In this document: one piece after another, positions 26,167 to 63,812 of the stretch | How the letters are laid out: each line of letters begins with the position of its first letter | Position numbering within the stretch: the first letter of the stretch is position 1 | Source: a virus | Lineage: Duplodnaviria > Caudoviricetes | Length of the DNA: 64,000 nucleotides | Reading direction: 5' to 3' (one strand) | IMG/VR virus record: IMGVR_UViG_3300009873_000003 | Coordinates: 32,001-96,000 of that record | The notes under the pieces: model-generated | Told to the model about the DNA's origin: nothing | What the model saw: the letters and a program-made list of their open reading frames with translations, nothing else | Database searches by the model: none | Translations under genes and position numbers: made by a program

Positions 26167-26305
26167 TATAACGGTTTTCCTTACTTAATCAAGTTCTAGT
26201 TCGTCAAGCTTTCATGCGTGAAAGCTTGACAAATTATACCGCATGTGCTATGCTTTCAGCAATAAAAACATCAAGAAAAGCTTGTTAAAAAGAAAGTGTT
26301 AAACA

Positions 26306-26968
26306 ATGTACGTAGAATTCACAAATTTTCTAAATGAGCGTGACTTGAACCTAGAACTGCTGTTTAGCTACGGCTCGCAGGTCTATAATCTAGATAATGC
26401 GTCGAGTGACTATGACTTGATGGCTGTCGTGTCGCAGCAACCAGACACCTACCTTGGACTGCACGATGCGAATCGGTCTTGGGGTCACTTCACGCACGAC
26501 AACGTCACTGTGCAATTTCTTGATTTGAAACGCTTCTATCAGCTTGCCGAAAGTAGCAATTTCACGCTCTATGTTGGACTGCGGAATTTGACCTTCACTG
26601 CACCCTTGCAGCTACCGAACCCTCGCACGTTTAGCTTGCGCAAGCTTGCACATCATTGTCTTGGTCTTGTCGATAACAAAAGTCAACGTCAGTATATGAA
26701 GGCATACAGCGCATTGTTCGTCATGTTTCTAGTGCAGAACGGGCATCATCCAGCAAGTCTTGACTATCGCTATCTACTAGACAATGTTCGCTCTGTTCCT
26801 GACAATGTGAAACGGCTGCTCGAACTTAAAAAGACAGGCGAGGCAAAACTCTCTGACGTTGCCGTAAACGCACCGTACACGCACGATGAAGTTAACTTTC
26901 TATCTGACGAAAAACACTCTTATAATGATTTCTGGCTTGATTGGCTGAAGGAGCGCTATGTCTTCTAG
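26306..26968 (+). CDS. Pol-beta superfamily nucleotidyltransferase (RlaP/YcgL-like)
   Basis: YGSQVYNL....SDYD catalytic motif and DLKRF..L...SN; own promoter TTGACA(26226)-17-TATGCT. Confidence 0.7.
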   Translation: MYVEFTNFLNERDLNLELLFSYGSQVYNLDNASSDYDLMAVVSQQPDTYLGLHDANRSWGHFTHDNVTVQFLDLKRFYQLAESSNFTLYVGLRNLTFTAPLQLPNPRTFSLRKLAHHCLGLVDNKSQRQYMKAYSALFVMFLVQNGHHPASLDYRYLLDNVRSVPDNVKRLLELKKTGEAKLSDVAVNAPYTHDEVNFLSDEKHSYNDFWLDWLKERYVF

Positions 26969-28403
26969 TAACGTTTGGTCGAACTACGACTACCTTGAAC
27001 AAAACATCGAAGTGCGTATGATTCTTGACTCGCTTCGTGAATCGAACGGCACAAGAGTTTCAACAATGCTCTGGCGTGTGCCAAGATTTCTGTTACCGCA
27101 ACTGAACACTTACAGAACATTTTCAAGAAATGTTTCAAGCTGTTTGACTGGCGACAACGAACTCTACTTCGACAAACCAGTTGCTATTGCTAAAGGTAAA
27201 CGCTTTCTCAACAAAGTGTCTTTAGACACGCTCTATCGAAAATGGACCTACGGCAATTCGATAGGCAGAACTCAGAAACATGTCGTCCGTGCACTGTGTT
27301 TGCGTTGTTACGATTTCGACAAAAATGAATTTAAACACACCCATATTCGTGACATTCGTTATGAAGGCTTGAAAGAGGTCTACAAAGTAACATTCTCTAA
27401 CAAATTCACGCTAACCCTAACAAGCGACCATCGTCTACTAACCACAGAAGGTTGGAAGACGCTGCAAGACTACGGTTTACATGTTAAAGCTGACGGTCAG
27501 TGCGAATGGAACGAAGGACCGAAAATTGCTGCCAACGAAAAGCTAACGAAACCAAGTGGCCCTCATCCACGCTGGGTGAGAATTAGAAATATAGAATATG
27601 TTGGTGTTGAAAAAGTCTACGATGTTGAAGTTGAGGACGAAAACGAATCGTTTGTCTGCAATGGCATCGTTGTTCACAACAGTCGTGCTAAACGTTTTTC
27701 TAAAACTGTTTCAGAAGTCCTCGACAATCCATATGTGCCGTACATCTGGCAAGCTGACCATGCTGGAATGCAGACGGAAGAAAGATTAGAAGCTTGGAAA
27801 ACACCGATTGCGAACTTTCTGTGGAATGCTTCAATTCAAACTCAAACCTTTTGGGCTGGCTGTCTCTCAAGATTAGGCGTCTCGAAACAATACACAAATC
27901 GTCTAATTGAACCTTACATGTATGTTGACTATCTCGTGACAGCGAACGATTTTGACAATTTCTTGACGCAACGTGACAGCTTTCACGCTCAATTAGAAAT
28001 CCAAGTGCTTGCCCGTCGCCTACGTCTAGCACTAGAATGCAGCGAACCAACAGTGCTAAAAACGAATGAATGGCACCTGCCGTTTGTGACTAATTCTGAA
28101 AAAGAGAACATGTTTGATGCAATCAGACTAAGTGTTGCACGCTGCGCTCGAACCAGTTATCTTGCACCTAACATTGAAACAGACAAACAAGCTGACTTCA
28201 AGCTGTTCGCACGTTTAGCTAAAGACTATCACCTATCACCTTTTGAACATCAAGTCGTGATGTCAGGAACTTGGGGCGGGAATTTGCAAGGCGTGACACA
28301 ACTTCGCAAAGTTCTCGAAACTCACCTTACCTTCACTGATGGCGTGTTCAATTTGAAAGAGTTTGAAAATTTGTTAATGAATCGTCTTTCTCTGTTCGAC
28401 TAA
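26958..28403 (+). CDS. thyX: Flavin-dependent thymidylate synthase ThyX, intein-containing
   Basis: LNTYRTFSRNVSS^SRA, KQY.NRLIEP, AQLEIQ.LA, SVARCARTSY and H.SPFEH motifs. Confidence 0.85.
   Translation: MSSSNVWSNYDYLEQNIEVRMILDSLRESNGTRVSTMLWRVPRFLLPQLNTYRTFSRNVSSCLTGDNELYFDKPVAIAKGKRFLNKVSLDTLYRKWTYGNSIGRTQKHVVRALCLRCYDFDKNEFKHTHIRDIRYEGLKEVYKVTFSNKFTLTLTSDHRLLTTEGWKTLQDYGLHVKADGQCEWNEGPKIAANEKLTKPSGPHPRWVRIRNIEYVGVEKVYDVEVEDENESFVCNGIVVHNSRAKRFSKTVSEVLDNPYVPYIWQADHAGMQTEERLEAWKTPIANFLWNASIQTQTFWAGCLSRLGVSKQYTNRLIEPYMYVDYLVTANDFDNFLTQRDSFHAQLEIQVLARRLRLALECSEPTVLKTNEWHLPFVTNSEKENMFDAIRLSVARCARTSYLAPNIETDKQADFKLFARLAKDYHLSPFEHQVVMSGTWGGNLQGVTQLRKVLETHLTFTDGVFNLKEFENLLMNRLSLFD
27141..27680 (+). 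mobile_element. Mini-intein (180 aa, no homing endonuclease) in thyX
   Basis: Starts CLTGD, has block B LTLTSDHRLLT, ends VYDVEV....FVCNGIVVHN followed by Ser. Confidence 0.9.
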
Positions 28404-61062: not shown

Positions 61063-61130
61063 AGTTCGCATTTAAACGTGAGAAATTATCGGTTTCTTGT
61101 TTTTTTGTTTTGCTGTTAGCGAACTTATGT
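61063..61130 (-). ncRNA. CTAACAGCAAA-stem RNA with anticodon-arm-like hairpin
   Basis: TTGACA(61159-64)-17-TATACT; AGTTCGC/GCGAACT stem; AGAAA-CCGATAA-TTTCT hairpin. Confidence 0.6.
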
Positions 61131-61694: not shown

Positions 61695-62105
61695 TTATTC
61701 GTTTGCTAAAAACAGCTTTTCTTTCGCTCTAGTTACAGCAACATATTCTAGGTTCTGCTCTTGCTGCGCCTGCCAAGCGAGCTGACCTTTATATTTGATA
61801 CGAATGATTGTAAAATACTTGTTTTCGTCAACTCTAATTTTCCGCACCTTGGAGAGCAATTTCATTCCAGACGCATGAAGCGTTTTTGCATCAGCTTTAT
61901 CGCCAAGCCTCGAACCAAGTTCTGTCGCAATGTGTTTGTTGAAAGTGGCGAAGAGTACAGATTGTCTGGTGTCAAGCTCATTCACAATCTGAACAAGCGT
62001 TGTCGTCTTGCCAGAACCGGCAACAGCACTGACAGCAAGATTAGCATCTGTGTTGCGCACGTTGTCGAAAATGTGCGTTTGATAACTTGACCAGTTCATG
62101 CTCAT
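61695..62105 (-). pseudogene. Internally deleted UvrD/Rep-like helicase (136 aa)
   Basis: Motifs I (AVAGSGKTT), Ia (FNKHIA) and Ib (KTLH) are joined directly to motif VI (NL.YVAVTRAK); motifs II-V are absent. Confidence 0.7.
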
Positions 62106-62405: not shown

Positions 62406-63050
62406 TCACTTAGCAAAGACAGGAACGAGATTTTGACGATTGTCGTAGAAGAGTTCAACAACGCCTTTTTCAAACCCATCCGCTAACGTGTTCATTGGGG
62501 CGTTCACTTCTTCACCATCGACGTACACTTGATAGCTGCTCGCTAGACCTGGCAACTGAATGCGGTCAGTCAAAACGGTTGTTGTAGTGATGTCATATCG
62601 TTTGAAAACTTCGCCTGTCTCAACGTGCTTAATTTCAACAACCTTATCGACTGTCATGTGAAATTTAATAAAGCTCTTGACAAAGCCATTTTCGACGATA
62701 GCATAGCGATAAACGTCAGGCACGACTGGGTTGAAGTGGGTGGTGATGGCAACTGGCGTCCCGTTAACCGTCACGCTCACATTCGCTGGACCAATTGATG
62801 GTCTAAAAGTGAAACGAGTGAATTTGACATAGAGTGGGTCGCCTTCGACTTGCACTGTCGCTGTGTAATAGACAGTGTCAAAAATATGATAGCTGACACT
62901 AATCGTGTCGCTAACCGCCGACTGCACCACGAGTTCAGACGTGAAACCTTCGGAATCGAAATAACTTTGGAGCACAGCGGTCGCTGGAACGGTTGGAGCA
63001 GGTGAAGCAATAAGAAGATAGAGAGAGAATAGACTACTTAGAAAGAACAT
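62406..63050 (-). CDS. Secreted hypothetical protein
   Basis: Signal peptide; AAGGA RBS. Confidence 0.6.
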   Translation of the reverse strand: MFFLSSLFSLYLLIASPAPTVPATAVLQSYFDSEGFTSELVVQSAVSDTISVSYHIFDTVYYTATVQVEGDPLYVKFTRFTFRPSIGPANVSVTVNGTPVAITTHFNPVVPDVYRYAIVENGFVKSFIKFHMTVDKVVEIKHVETGEVFKRYDITTTTVLTDRIQLPGLASSYQVYVDGEEVNAPMNTLADGFEKGVVELFYDNRQNLVPVFAK

Positions 63051-63076
63051 TTTGATTTTTCCTTTACCTATACTAG

Positions 63077-63148
63077 CGCCCTAACTTGGACTCGAACCAA
63101 GAATAGAAATTTAGAAGATTTCTGTGATGTCCCTTTCACCATTAGAGC
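63077..63148 (-). tRNA. tRNA-Arg(TCT)
   Basis: GCTCTAA/TTAGGGC acceptor, GAAAT-CTTCTAA-ATTTC anticodon arm, CTTGG-TTCGAGT-CCAAG T arm. Confidence 0.9.
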
Positions 63149-63161
63149 AGAAAAAGGGTAG

Positions 63162-63251
63162 CGGTCAGGGAAAGATTTGAACTTTCGAGACACTTACCGT
63201 GTCTAACCGTTTTCAAGACGGCCCCGTTAAACCAGACTCCGGCACCCGACC
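63162..63251 (-). tRNA. tRNA-Ser(TGA)
   Basis: GGTCGGG/CCTGACC acceptor, GCCGT-CTTGAAA-ACGGT anticodon arm, long variable arm, GAAAG-TTCAAAT-CTTTC T arm. Confidence 0.9.
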
Positions 63252-63261
63252 AATTTAGAAC

Positions 63262-63373
63262 AGTGCGCTATTTTATATGTGCTGCCGTTACACTACATCA
63301 TCTTGCGATGATGGCTGGACTCGAACCAACACCGTATCCTTAAAATAGAATTTTTGTTTGCTGTTAGCGCACT
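63262..63373 (-). ncRNA. Y-RNA-like (YrlA-architecture) RNA with circularly permuted tRNA-like domain
   Basis: A long stem with a CTAACAGCAAA bulge encloses a T arm, a 7-bp acceptor-like stem closed by GCAA, then TA and a D arm. Confidence 0.75.
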
Positions 63374-63686: not shown

Positions 63687-63712
63687 TGTTGTCTTCTTTC
63701 TTTTCTAAGAAA

Positions 63713-63775
63713 AGTTCGCTGTTTTGTTTTTCAATTAGCGATGAAATTTTGTTTTGCTGTTAGCGAACTTATGTT
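63713..63775 (-). ncRNA. CTAACAGCAAA-stem RNA with anticodon-arm-like hairpin
   Basis: TTGACA(63803-08)-17-TATACT; AGTTCGCT/AGCGAACT stem; TTTCA-TCGCTAAT-TGAAA hairpin. Confidence 0.6.
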
Positions 63776-63812
63776 TAAGAGTATATCACGCTATTACTTG
63801 CTTGTCAAGCTT

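What the first reader, a model, noticed from the sequence alone, without database searches (positions are those of the whole stretch)
63262..63373. Circularly permuted tRNA-like RNA (YrlA/Y-RNA architecture) beside the tRNA pair
Seen, minus strand: AGTGCG-CTAACAGCAAACAAAAATT-CTATTTTA-AGGATACGGT-[GTTGG TTCGAGT CCAGC]-[CATCATC GCAA GATGATG]-TA-[GTGT AACGGCA GCAC]-ATA-TAAAATAG-CGCACT. The order is T arm, a 7-bp acceptor stem sealed by a GNRA tetraloop, U8-A9, then a D arm with GG; a long bulged terminal stem replaces the anticodon arm. Established: this is the layout of bacterial YrlA Y RNAs, which bind Ro60/Rsr (TROVE) and occur near RNA-repair genes. No Ro60 gene is in this window. Inference: the phage supplies its own Y RNA to a phage or host Ro60, or uses it as a non-chargeable tRNA decoy.
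Basis: partly seen in the sequence, partly recalled or inferred. Interest (0 to 1): 0.85.

Follow-up and report, generated by a model that had tools for sequence, protein, structure and literature searches.

The report
Phage Y-RNA-like tRNA mimic
This phage makes a small RNA shaped like a tRNA with its acceptor end sealed shut. It is most likely the partner RNA of a ring-shaped Ro60-like protein that the phage encodes among RNA-repair genes, in a variant of the Ro60/Y-RNA particle that I found in no RNA catalogue or paper.

Summary
The 112-nt element (window 63262-63373, minus strand) is real. It has a T arm, a tetraloop-capped 7-bp acceptor-like stem, U8-A9 and a D arm, closed by an 8-9-bp terminal stem (MFE -32.2 kcal/mol, z -3.5).

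The layout is that of YrlA-type Y RNAs. However, it lacks YrlA's GNCGAA motif, and the phage has no TROVE-family Ro60.

It belongs to a large covarying RNA family. The shared "handle" is a terminal stem plus CAGCAA, with ...CUGUU at the 3' end. The handle tracks another protein, Pfam DUF2828/DUF7788-vWA:
- DUF2828 is in 18 of 19 handle-bearing phage records; TROVE is in 0 of 20.
- The gene usually lies about 300 nt away on the same strand.

This phage encodes a 481-aa copy 10.3 kb from the RNA, outside the window.
- Its AlphaFold model matches Ro60 structures over the full length.
- It sits between RNA ligases.
- Its own mRNA leader carries the handle.

Two handle-only copies lie in the window.

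Best reading: a Y-RNA-like tRNA mimic that partners the phage's Ro60-like protein in RNA repair or counter-defence. Binding and function are inferred. I found no paper or Rfam family for it. This scan has reported the same DUF2828-CAGCAA pairing on many other genomes.

The parts
63366..63373 (-). Terminal stem P1, 5' strand (AGUGCGCU; a ninth pair A63365-U63270 is possible)
   Evidence: MFE fold. Eight P1 pairs all show changes on both sides across 36 family members, 92% paired. P1 is at least 8 bp in 81% of members against 10.6% of shuffles.
63358..63363 (-). CAGCAA motif, single-stranded, one nucleotide after P1. With P1 it forms the family 'handle' and the presumed protein-recognition site.
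   Evidence: C, A, G, C and A are invariant columns in alignment A1. The motif recurs in two leaders in the window and in the DUF2828 mRNA leader.
63336..63351 (-). Local hairpin AUUCU-AUUUUA-AGGAU in anticodon-arm position, followed by the 5-nt ACGGU (63331-63335)
   Evidence: MFE fold. Relatives often carry a 4-5-bp hairpin with a 7-nt loop here; U at loop position 2 in 13 of 15 and a purine at position 6 in 15 of 15. This is the least conserved part.
63314..63330 (-). T arm GUUGG-UUCGAGU-CCAGC
   Evidence: Helix 2 is 100% paired, with 4 of 5 pairs changed on both sides.
63296..63313 (-). Closed acceptor-like stem CAUCAUC-GCAA-GAUGAUG (7 bp, GNRA tetraloop)
   Evidence: In a pattern scan that left both 7-mers free, 24 of 44 viral hits were 7/7 complementary. 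Helix 3 has 7 of 7 pairs changed on both sides.
63279..63295 (-). U8-A9 and D arm GUGU-AACGGCA-GCAC
   Evidence: UA at this place in 81 of 92 family members.
63259..63269 (-). P1 3' strand AGCGCACU plus the conserved trailing GUU (...CUGUU)
   Evidence: tRNA-Ser starts 10 nt further on, at 63251.
63780..63808 (-). Sigma-70-type promoter (TTGACA-17-TATACT, TG-extended) that most likely drives leader A, ORF102, this RNA, tRNA-Ser, tRNA-Arg, ORF214 and tRNA-Thr
   Evidence: 11 of 12 matches. No minus-strand terminator-like site before 62311. Expression itself is not shown.
63712..63770 (-). Leader A: handle-only copy (AAGUUCGCU + AACAGCAAAAC ... AGCGAACUU) with a small hairpin. It is YrlB-like or Class-I-like.
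   Evidence: R1 28.5 bits over the full model. Compensatory U-A to G-C change against the tRNA-like copy. Rfam Dicty_Class_I_RNA alignment 16.8 bits, motif CUAACAGCAAA against consensus CUUACAGCAAU.
61063..61125 (-). Leader B: second handle-only copy, behind the promoter at 61164-61136, with hairpin AGAAA-CCGAUAA-UUUCU
   Evidence: R1 25.3 bits.
63161..63251 (-). tRNA-Ser(UGA), immediately downstream. Its RNase P processing would free the 3' side of the element.
   Evidence: The processing step is an inference.
26306..26968 (+). RlaP-family nucleotidyltransferase (RNA 3'-end repair). A possible accessory of the same RNA-repair programme, not an obligate partner.
   Evidence: Pfam RlaP E 5.4e-12. 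RlaP is present in only 8 of 18 other handle-bearing records. Activity is described in bioRxiv 10.64898/2025.12.29.696909.

Best explanation
The element is a stable non-coding RNA of the Y-RNA kind. It has a complete tRNA-like core (T arm, closed acceptor stem, D arm and a small anticodon-arm-like hairpin). Its 5' and 3' ends are clamped by a terminal stem next to a single-stranded CAGCAA motif.

This 'handle' is most likely the binding site for the phage's own Ro60-like ring protein. That protein is DUF2828/DUF7788-vWA, 481 aa, at genome 105,664-107,109 on the minus strand, 10.3 kb from the RNA and outside the window.

The RNA is probably cut out of a polycistronic early transcript that also carries tRNA-Ser, tRNA-Arg and tRNA-Thr. 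In the particle, the tRNA-like module would present a tRNA shape to tRNA-binding enzymes. These may be the phage's RNA ligases, Pnkp/Hen1-like enzyme, CCA-enzyme-like protein or RlaP, or a host nuclease. Alternatively the module may gate the ring. Either way the particle would serve repair or protection of tRNAs during infection.

Handle-only copies in three mRNA leaders, including the DUF2828 mRNA, would be second, YrlB-like partner RNAs or autoregulatory sites.

Shown here: the fold, family membership, covariation, genomic linkage to DUF2828, the Ro60 fold of that protein, and its RNA-repair neighbours.

Inferred: expression, processing, binding, and the repair or counter-defence role.
For: **Fold**
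-, with the local YrlA alignment.

**Family**
- 36 distinct members aligned by MAFFT show 96.5% paired cells.
- 23 of 24 pairs have changes on both sides; covariation score 0.94 against 0.24 in shuffles and 0.07-0.16 when the pairs are slid.
- Model R1 scores this RNA at 87.1 bits and leaders A and B at 28.5 and 25.3 bits.
- R1 finds more than 100 matches in viral loci and more than 100 in bacterial or MAG loci.

**Partner protein**
- DUF2828 is in 18 of 19 handle-bearing records, and in 11 of 11 that are at least 90% complete, including this phage.
- TROVE is in 0 of 14 plus 0 of 6 such records, and not in this genome.
- TROVE-positive records carry the other (GGCGWAG-type) 5' motif and have DUF2828 in 0 of 14.
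- In held loci, 52 handle RNAs share a locus with a DUF2828 ORF. The median distance is 311 nt and 52 of 52 are on the same strand.
- Protein-first test: 36 of 80 DUF2828 loci have R1 hits within 6 kb, and 50 of 50 hits are on the gene's strand.
- A scan for the 17-nt motif alone landed in the 5' leaders of DUF2828 genes in several unrelated phages. The same arrangement is seen in this phage.

**The protein is Ro60-like**
- AF2 model with pLDDT 91 and pTM 0.90.
- The top 12 PDB matches are all Ro60/Rsr/phage Ro60 over the full length (E 1.7e-8, TM 0.51-0.59).
- hhalign against phage TROVE proteins gives 97% probability, E 7.9e-11.
- MIDAS residues D293, S295 and S297 are invariant.

**Context**
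- The gene lies between a methyltransferase+Pnkp-ligase protein and an Rnl-type RNA ligase.
- A WGR-PARP protein and a CCA-enzyme-like HD protein are nearby.

**Precedent**
- Ro60 binds Y RNAs through a 5'-3' stem beside a conserved motif in an internal loop.
- Those RNAs are encoded next to the gene on the same strand (PMC4201824, PMC12135203).
Against: - No expression, processing or binding data exist for this uncultured phage.
- Here the tRNA-like copy is 10.3 kb from the DUF2828 gene. The usual distance is about 300 nt.
- The sequences used for covariation were picked by a detector that required paired T, acceptor and D stems and a terminal stem. Those numbers are therefore partly circular. 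The independent support is.
- Model R1 also scores TROVE-linked YrlA-like RNAs at 46-72 bits. It recognises the shared architecture, not the handle alone.
- Only 45% of DUF2828 loci showed an R1 hit within 6 kb.
- The N-terminal ring of DUF2828 aligns to TROVE by fold only, not by sequence profile.
- The hairpin loop here has 6 nt, not 7.
Confidence: 0.65

Rival explanations
1. It is a canonical YrlA Y RNA that works with the host's TROVE-family Ro60 (Rsr). The phage supplies only the RNA.
For: The core order T arm, closed stem, D arm matches the Rfam YrlA model locally. R1 scores TROVE-linked phage YrlA-like RNAs at 46-72 bits, so the two kinds are structurally close.
Against: The GNCGAAN0-1G motif that defines the presumed Rsr site (PMC4201824) is absent. 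The 5' motif type sorts cleanly with the protein type: CAGCAA with DUF2828, GGCGWAG with TROVE. The phage has its own Ro60-like protein, whose mRNA leader carries the same handle. The host is unknown, so host Ro60 could not be checked.
Confidence: 0.06
2. It is a free-standing tRNA decoy or sponge. It titrates a host tRNA-directed defence nuclease or a tRNA-processing or tRNA-modifying enzyme without needing the DUF2828 protein. The sealed acceptor end keeps it non-chargeable and resistant to exonucleases.
For: It has a full set of tRNA elbow nucleotides. It lies inside a tRNA cluster. Relatives carry diverse anticodon-loop-like 7-nt loops. Phages are known to counter tRNA-targeting defences with tRNA genes (general knowledge).
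Against: It does not explain the conserved CAGCAA handle. It does not explain the handle-only copies that lack any tRNA part. It does not explain the tight same-strand linkage to DUF2828. A decoy role within the particle is compatible with the best explanation.
Confidence: 0.1
3. It is a permuted or split pre-tRNA. RNase P and 3' trimming open the capped acceptor stem and CCA is added, as happens with Mycobacterium smegmatis YrlA. This would yield a two-piece, possibly chargeable tRNA-like molecule.
For: The stem is exactly 7 bp, the length that makes M. smegmatis YrlA an RNase P substrate (PMC4201824). In 13 of 92 family members the loop starts N-CCA, about nine times the chance rate. The phage encodes a CCA-enzyme-like protein.
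Against: Here the cap is a stable GCAA tetraloop with no CCA. The anticodon-like loop has 6 nt. No identity elements are evident. No ligase-dependent circularisation motif is known in bacteria. Cleavage in M. smegmatis did not make YrlA a translating tRNA.
Confidence: 0.07
4. It is only a cis-acting processing or stability element of the operon. The terminal helix and tRNA-like fold direct RNase P or RNase Z-type cuts and protect the flanking mRNA ends, and the RNA has no function in trans.
For: It sits 4 nt after the stop codon of ORF102 and 10 nt before tRNA-Ser. The handle also occurs at the very 5' end of three mRNAs behind strong promoters, where a 5' stem could stabilise the message.
Against: The invariant CAGCAA, the conservation across very different phages and bacteria, the arrays of several copies per genome and the linkage to one protein family all argue for specific recognition, not a generic structure.
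Confidence: 0.08
5. It is a decayed tandem-tRNA remnant or a chance look-alike with no function.
For: YrlA-like RNAs are thought to descend from dimeric tRNA transcripts (bioRxiv 10.1101/312249).
Against: z -3.5 with 0 of 200 shuffles as good. All helices are kept by compensatory changes in relatives. R1 scores it at 87 bits.
Confidence: 0.02

Closest known systems
YrlA / YrlB Y RNAs with bacterial and mycobacteriophage Ro60 (Rsr); Rfam RF02553; Chen et al. 2014, PMC4201824; structure in bioRxiv 10.1101/312249
   Same: The RNA has the circularly permuted tRNA layout (T arm, closed acceptor stem, U-A, D arm) with tRNA tertiary nucleotides. The ends are joined in a stem next to a short conserved single-stranded motif. 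It is encoded with a ring+vWA protein on the same strand, often beside RNA ligases. A second, smaller RNA carries the motif without the tRNA body (YrlB; the handle-only leaders here).
   Different: The motif is CAGCAA, not GNCGAAN0-1G. The partner is Pfam DUF2828/DUF7788, not TROVE (PF05731). The Rfam score is 19.8 against a gathering score of 69. The acceptor-like stem is a strict 7 bp in my sample. In this phage the gene is 10.3 kb away.
Thermus phage phiLo Ro60 with Yrl1/Yrl2 (PMC12135203; PDB 9KOP, 9L5Y)
   Same: A phage-encoded Ro60-fold protein with phage-encoded partner RNAs. The RNAs have a 5'-3' stem flanking an internal loop that holds the recognition motif, and lie upstream of the gene. 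9KOP and 9L5Y are among the best structural matches of this phage's protein.
   Different: phiLo Ro60 is a TROVE-family protein and its RNAs use the CGAA motif. Those RNAs are not described as tRNA-like. The proposed role there is hijacking host PNPase, whereas the context here is RNA ligases.
Dictyostelium Class I RNAs (Rfam RF01414; PMC7919456)
   Same: A short stem joins the 5' and 3' ends. An 11-nt conserved motif follows the 5' strand: Rfam consensus CUUACAGCAAU, leader A CUAACAGCAAA. The interior is variable and a conserved CUG(U) follows the 3' strand, compared with CUGUU here.
   Different: They are eukaryotic, about 60 nt long and have no tRNA body. Their known binder is the RRM protein Rnp1A/Cibp. 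The score here is 16.8 bits against a gathering score of 41.5, so this is a resemblance of the handle, not membership. I did not test whether dictyostelids pair these RNAs with a DUF2828 protein.
Permuted tRNA genes of Cyanidioschyzon merolae and some archaea (cited in bioRxiv 10.1101/312249)
   Same: The primary transcript has a closed acceptor stem, and the 5' and 3' ends pair in a helix.
   Different: Those are matured into real tRNAs by splicing-type excision, ligation and RNase P/Z. Here there is no bulge-helix-bulge motif, no 7-nt anticodon loop, and a conserved protein-linked handle instead.
Phage T4 Pnkp/Rnl1 tRNA repair and bacterial Pnkp-Hen1 and RtcB-Ro-Y RNA repair operons (Burroughs and Aravind 2016, recalled from memory; PMC7824862)
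   Same: RNA ligase, end-healing and nucleotidyltransferase genes are clustered with a Ro-type RNA-binding protein and a tRNA-like RNA. The presumed use is against host tRNA-cleaving defences.
   Different: There is no RtcB here. The ring protein belongs to the DUF2828 branch. The role of the RNA in repair is unproven in every one of these systems.

Membership tests
YrlA (Rfam RF02553; Chen et al. 2014) | T stem-loop, closed acceptor-like stem-loop and D stem-loop in that order, with tRNA tertiary nucleotides | tested here: met
   The model aligns over positions 30-81. U8, A14, G18G19, A21, G53, UUC, A58, C61 and A15/U48 are read from the sequence.
YrlA (Rfam RF02553; Chen et al. 2014) | GNCGAAN0-1G motif near the 5' end (presumed Rsr contact) | tested here: not met
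   The 5' region reads AGUGCGCUAACAGCAAACAAAAA. No GNCGAA is present; CAGCAA occupies the place.
YrlA (Rfam RF02553; Chen et al. 2014) | Encoded within about 4 kb of a TROVE-domain Ro60 gene on the same strand | tested here: not met
   No PF05731 match in the 114-kb, 92%-complete genome. The control genomes were detected.
YrlA (Rfam RF02553; Chen et al. 2014) | Reaches Rfam's gathering score (69 bits) | tested here: not met
   19.8 bits, E 0.48. Caveat: none of 5 TROVE-linked phage loci reached it either, so the cut-off is narrow.
YrlA (Rfam RF02553; Chen et al. 2014) | Bound by Rsr/Ro60 in vivo | not testable with these tools
   Needs immunoprecipitation or EMSA.
CAGCAA-handle RNAs linked to DUF2828 (unnamed; my model R1) | Terminal stem joining the 5' and 3' ends, 0-4 nt, then CAGCAA; 3' strand followed by GUU | tested here: met
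   R1 gives 87.1 bits. This sequence was in the training alignment, so that score is by construction.
CAGCAA-handle RNAs linked to DUF2828 (unnamed; my model R1) | Helices maintained by compensatory changes among members | tested here: met
   (23 of 24 pairs). Members were pre-selected for pairing.
CAGCAA-handle RNAs linked to DUF2828 (unnamed; my model R1) | A DUF2828/DUF7788 gene in the same genome, typically adjacent and co-oriented | tested here: met
   The gene is present on the same strand. It is not adjacent to this copy (10.3 kb away), but a handle-only copy sits in the gene's own leader.
Ro60 / TROVE superfamily (the partner protein) | Helical-repeat ring followed by a vWA domain with a MIDAS motif | tested here: met
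   AF2 pLDDT 91. The top 12 Foldseek hits are full-length Ro60. DxSxS is invariant. hhalign gives 97%.
Ro60 / TROVE superfamily (the partner protein) | Matches Pfam TROVE (PF05731) | tested here: not met
   Only DUF7788, DUF2828 and VWA_2 match.
Functional tRNA (RF00005) | Free paired 5'/3' acceptor ends and a 7-nt anticodon loop | tested here: not met
   Not called by ARAGORN or the Rfam tRNA model. The acceptor is capped by GCAA and the hairpin loop has 6 nt.
Dictyostelium Class I RNA (RF01414) | Short terminal stem, 11-nt motif after the 5' strand, CUG(U) after the 3' strand, about 60 nt, gathering score 41.5 bits | tested here: inconclusive
   Leader A aligns end to end with 9 of 11 motif letters but scores only 16.8 bits. 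The tRNA-like copy is twice the length.

The most novel reading that the evidence does not exclude
DUF2828 proteins are a family of more than 4,000 uncharacterised sequences in phages, gut and soil bacteria, and eukaryotes. They may form a second, unrecognised branch of Ro60. Its Y RNAs would be defined by a terminal-stem-plus-CAGCAA handle and would carry exchangeable cargo: whole sealed tRNA bodies, anticodon-arm mimics, or nothing. In phages this particle would work with RNA ligases to repair or shield tRNAs against host anticodon nucleases, and would autoregulate through handle copies in its own mRNA leader. The long-unexplained Class I RNAs of social amoebae would be the eukaryotic version of the same handle.
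Probability: 0.45. Interest if true: 0.9.

Novelty: new variant of a known kind. Interest (0 to 1): 0.78.

Why it matters
Ro60/Y-RNA particles are conserved from bacteria to humans, yet their bacterial and phage roles are still poorly understood.

What this finding adds:
- It gives a very large protein family of unknown function (DUF2828/DUF7788) a likely RNA partner and a likely field of action, RNA repair.
- It shows that the Y-RNA principle (handle plus tRNA mimic) exists in at least two protein-specific dialects that sort cleanly by 5' motif.
- It provides a simple sequence signature for finding these RNAs, which tRNA finders and Rfam miss, inside phage tRNA arrays.
- It makes one question directly testable: what is the tRNA-like module of a Y RNA for? 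The phage version sits next to defined ligases and end-healing enzymes. Related copies carry different anticodon-like loops.

Tried and rejected
- **TROVE, RtcB in this genome.** TROVE/Ro60 (PF05731): none. RtcB: none, and only 1 of 18 related records has it.
- **RlaP as obligate partner.** Present here but in only 8 of 18 other records. It is not obligate.
- **Retron idea.** The terminal inverted repeat plus AGC resembles msr/msd. Reverse transcriptase was found in 2 of 19 records and in 0 of 11 complete ones. Rejected.
- **Rfam.** At gathering thresholds only the three tRNAs are found. YrlA is only a weak local hit. The whole-genome YrlA search found nothing.
- **INPHARED phage blastn** of the region matched only tRNA pieces.
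- **Relatives through the neighbouring ORF214.** None in IMG/VR.
- **Naive genome-wide scan** for 'stem + CAGCAA' was too noisy inside coding sequence to add copies.
- **Pfam on the immediate neighbours** (ORF102, ORF214, ORF115, ORF358, ORF162) found nothing relevant.
- **Sequence searches of PDB** with the protein or its profile found no Ro60. Only the fold search did.
- **Papers not held.** Burroughs and Aravind 2016 (PMC5062991) and the 2020 Ro60 review (PMC10870794) are not in the library. I cannot exclude that DUF2828 was linked to TROVE there. A full-text search for DUF2828 returned only unrelated plant and tardigrade papers.
- **Complex prediction** was not used, because it takes no RNA chain.
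Full report
**Observation**

It contains:
- a canonical T arm (GUUGG / UUCGAGU / CCAGC);
- directly after it, a 7-bp hairpin capped by GCAA;
- then UA;
- then a D arm (GUGU / AACGGCA / GCAC);
- ends that are complementary.

The nucleotides that build the tRNA elbow are all in place. These are U8, A14, G18-G19, A21, G53, U54-U55-C56, A58, C61, and an A15/U48 Levitt pair.

RNAfold gives -32.2 kcal/mol against -21.6 +/- 3 for shuffles (z -3.5; none of 200 as stable). The fold shows four hairpins inside a 9-bp terminal stem. ARAGORN and Rfam find three ordinary tRNAs next to it (Ser-UGA, Arg-UCU, Thr-UGU) but do not call this element.

With relaxed thresholds the only relevant Rfam hit is YrlA. 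It aligns locally over T arm, closed stem and D arm at 19.8 bits, with a gathering score of 69.

The inner helix CUAUUUUA/UAAAAUAG is not in the MFE fold and has no counterpart in relatives. Instead there is a local hairpin (AUUCU-AUUUUA-AGGAU) followed by a 5-nt ACGGU before the T stem. That is the geometry of an anticodon arm plus variable loop.

**The repeated handle**

The 5' strand of the terminal stem and the following AACAGCAAAC recur twice more in the window. Each copy lies right behind a consensus sigma-70 promoter (TTGACA-17-TATACT). These are 'leader A' (63770-63712) and 'leader B' (61125-61063).

Each leader is a stem closing about 40 nt with a small hairpin. Compared with the tRNA-like copy, the stem carries a compensatory U-A to G-C change.

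A fourth, more diverged copy follows the promoter at genome position 107,268.

**A large family**

I ran a scan of IMG/VR for T loop + N7 + GNRA + N7 + UAG, which leaves both 7-mers free. It returned 44 places, and in 24 of them the 7-mers are perfectly complementary.

Their 5' flanks fall into two kinds:
- one with GGCG(A/U)AG-type motifs, the GNCGAA motif of YrlA (PMC4201824);
- one with a covarying terminal stem followed by CAGCAA, as in this window.

A second scan (ACAGCAA ... T loop) and a simple detector gave 36 distinct full-length members of the second kind.

A MAFFT alignment of those 36 members was not fitted to any structure. On it, 96.5% of cells pair and 23 of 24 pairs show changes on both sides. 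The covariation score is 0.94, against 0.24 in shuffles and 0.07-0.16 when partners are slid.

These members were chosen for having paired stems, so the figures are partly circular. Independent checks:
- the free 7-mers;
- a shuffle control for the terminal stem, which is at least 8 bp in 81% of members against 10.6%.

Covariance model R1 gave these results:
- this RNA, 87.1 bits;
- leaders A and B, 28.5 and 25.3 bits over the full model;
- more than 100 matches in the viral loci;
- more than 100 in loci from bacterial genomes and MAGs.

Handle-only 'mini' versions of 60-75 nt also exist in other phages.

R1 also scores the TROVE-linked YrlA-like RNAs at 46-72 bits. The two kinds therefore share one architecture and differ mainly in the handle.

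**The partner protein**

The 114,335-bp, 92%-complete phage genome has no TROVE domain and no RtcB.

Among other records:
- TROVE was present in 14 of 28 records from the first scan, all with the GGCGWAG-type RNA.
- TROVE was in 0 of 14 large records with the CAGCAA type, ten of them complete.

The clue came from a bacterial hit. In a Mycolicibacterium chromosome scaffold, a CAGCAA-type RNA lies 1.2 kb downstream of a 492-aa ORF matching Pfam DUF2828 + DUF7788.

I then tested DUF2828 across records:
- It is in 18 of 19 CAGCAA-bearing records, including 11 of 11 complete ones and this phage.
- It is in 0 of 14 TROVE-bearing records.
- It is in 0 of 14 control genomes.

In the loci I held, 52 CAGCAA-type RNAs share a locus with a DUF2828 ORF. 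The median distance is 311 nt, and all 52 are on the same strand. The other kind lies a median 200 nt from TROVE, 8 of 8 on the same strand.

Starting from the protein instead, 36 of 80 DUF2828 loci (gene +/- 6 kb) have R1 hits, and all 50 hits are on the gene's strand.

Loci found with nothing but the 17-nt motif GCUAACAGCAAAMMAAA include seven with a DUF2828 gene. In most of these the motif is the gene's 5' leader. The same arrangement is found in this phage.

**The protein is a Ro60 look-alike in an RNA-repair cluster**

The phage's copy is 481 aa, at genome 105,664-107,109 on the minus strand. That is 10.3 kb from the RNA and outside the window. It matches DUF7788 (E 1.3e-39), DUF2828 (1e-26) and VWA_2.

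Structural and profile evidence:
- An AlphaFold2 model from 56 homologues has pLDDT 91.2 and pTM 0.90.
- Its twelve best PDB matches are all full-length Ro60: Xenopus, human, Deinococcus Rsr and Thermus phage phiLo (E down to 1.7e-8, TM 0.51-0.59). Below them come only isolated vWA domains.
- A profile-profile comparison with phage TROVE proteins gives 97% probability over the vWA half.
- The MIDAS DxSxS residues are invariant.

Its neighbours on the same strand:
- a 794-aa methyltransferase + Pnkp-ligase protein (Pnkp/Hen1-like);
- an Rnl-type RNA ligase;
- a WGR-PARP protein;
- a CCA-enzyme-like HD protein.

An RlaP nucleotidyltransferase lies at window 26306-26968.

**Mechanism**

By analogy with Ro60, the DUF2828 protein most likely binds the terminal stem and CAGCAA. 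Ro60 grips a conserved motif beside the 5'-3' stem of Y RNAs, and those RNAs are encoded next to it on the same strand (PMC4201824, PMC12135203).

The sealed tRNA body would then act as the 'effector' module, as proposed for YrlA (bioRxiv 10.1101/312249). Here it would presumably recruit, guide or shield tRNA-directed enzymes in a phage tRNA-repair programme. The handle-only leaders would be YrlB-like partners or feedback sites.

The RNA is probably released from the early transcript that starts at the promoter at 63808-63780. RNase P cutting at tRNA-Ser, 10 nt downstream, would help. None of these steps has been observed.

Rivals I kept:
- a host-Ro60 Y RNA;
- a protein-independent tRNA decoy;
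- a split pre-tRNA opened by RNase P, favoured by the 7-bp stem and by N-CCA loop starts in 13 of 92 relatives;
- a purely cis-acting stability element.

**Comparison and novelty**

The element works like YrlA but fails three of its defining features: the motif, the TROVE neighbour and the Rfam score. I therefore file it as a variant, not a member.

The handle is strikingly like that of Dictyostelium Class I RNAs. Those have a stem, then CUUACAGCAAU, a variable interior and a 3' CUG(U) (PMC7919456). Leader A aligns end to end with 9 of 11 motif letters but scores only 16.8 bits. This lead came from earlier notes of this scan, and I tested it only that far.

I found no Rfam family and no paper that links DUF2828 to Ro60 or to these RNAs. 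Two key papers were not available.

After I had reached the DUF2828 link myself, a look-up showed that this scan has already reported the same DUF2828-CAGCAA pairing on many other genomes.

Noticed in passing
outside the window: genome 103,623-111,612 (L331:7623-15612), minus strand: An RNA-repair gene cluster: a CCA-enzyme-like HD protein, a 794-aa methyltransferase+Pnkp-ligase fusion (Pnkp/Hen1-like), the DUF2828-vWA Ro60-like protein, an Rnl-type RNA ligase, and a WGR+PARP ADP-ribosyltransferase.
   Followed up: partly
window 26958-28403 (+): A 481-aa ORF directly after RlaP combines an intein splicing domain with a ThyX (Thy1) match. It appears to be an intein-interrupted thymidylate synthase.
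   Followed up: no
window 26228-26305 (+): The RlaP mRNA leader, behind another AAGCTTGACAA promoter, holds GCUUUCAGCAAUAAAAAC ... AAAGC. This is a weak, diverged look-alike of the stem+CAGCAA handle. It was not detected by R1.
   Followed up: no
window 62311-62180, 59323-59170 and other copies (minus strand): There are repeated promoter, roughly 100-nt RNA and terminator cassettes with shared sequence (AAGUCACUCUCAAACG...), seen while listing promoters. Other reports of this scan already cover them.
   Followed up: no
window 61695-62105 (-): A 136-aa ORF matches only the N-terminal P-loop part and a scrap of the C-terminal end of UvrD/SF1 helicases. It is a miniature or truncated helicase.
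   Followed up: no
family-wide (92 distinct members in held loci): The loop that caps the acceptor-like stem starts with N-CCA in 13 of 92 members (chance is about 1.6%) and with N-CC in 21 of 92. GNRA tetraloops such as the one here occur in 10 of 92. This suggests descent from tandem tRNAs, or opening by RNase P and CCA repair in some members.
   Followed up: partly
family-wide; e.g. L200, L207, L167 (second copy): The small hairpin often has a 7-nt loop with U at position 2 and a purine at position 6, like an anticodon loop, with many different central triplets. In some members it sits after the D arm instead of before the T arm. The handle can therefore be inserted on either side of the anticodon arm of a complete tRNA body.
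   Followed up: partly
L225:3805-3929 (-) and L225:5171-6649 (-): A CAGCAA-type RNA and a DUF2828+DUF7788 gene lie together on a 1.5-Mb Mycolicibacterium scaffold with no tRNA genes nearby. The pairing is therefore not confined to phage tRNA arrays. Whether this is a prophage was not checked.
   Followed up: partly
L023:11235-11365 and L023:13778-13828: A related phage's tRNA array also holds RAGATH-33 and DUF3800-XI RNA motifs above Rfam gathering scores.
   Followed up: no
window 63039-63136 (-): R1 gives a weak 29.9-bit match over tRNA-Arg. This is a cross-hit of the tRNA-like core, not a further family member.
   Followed up: yes
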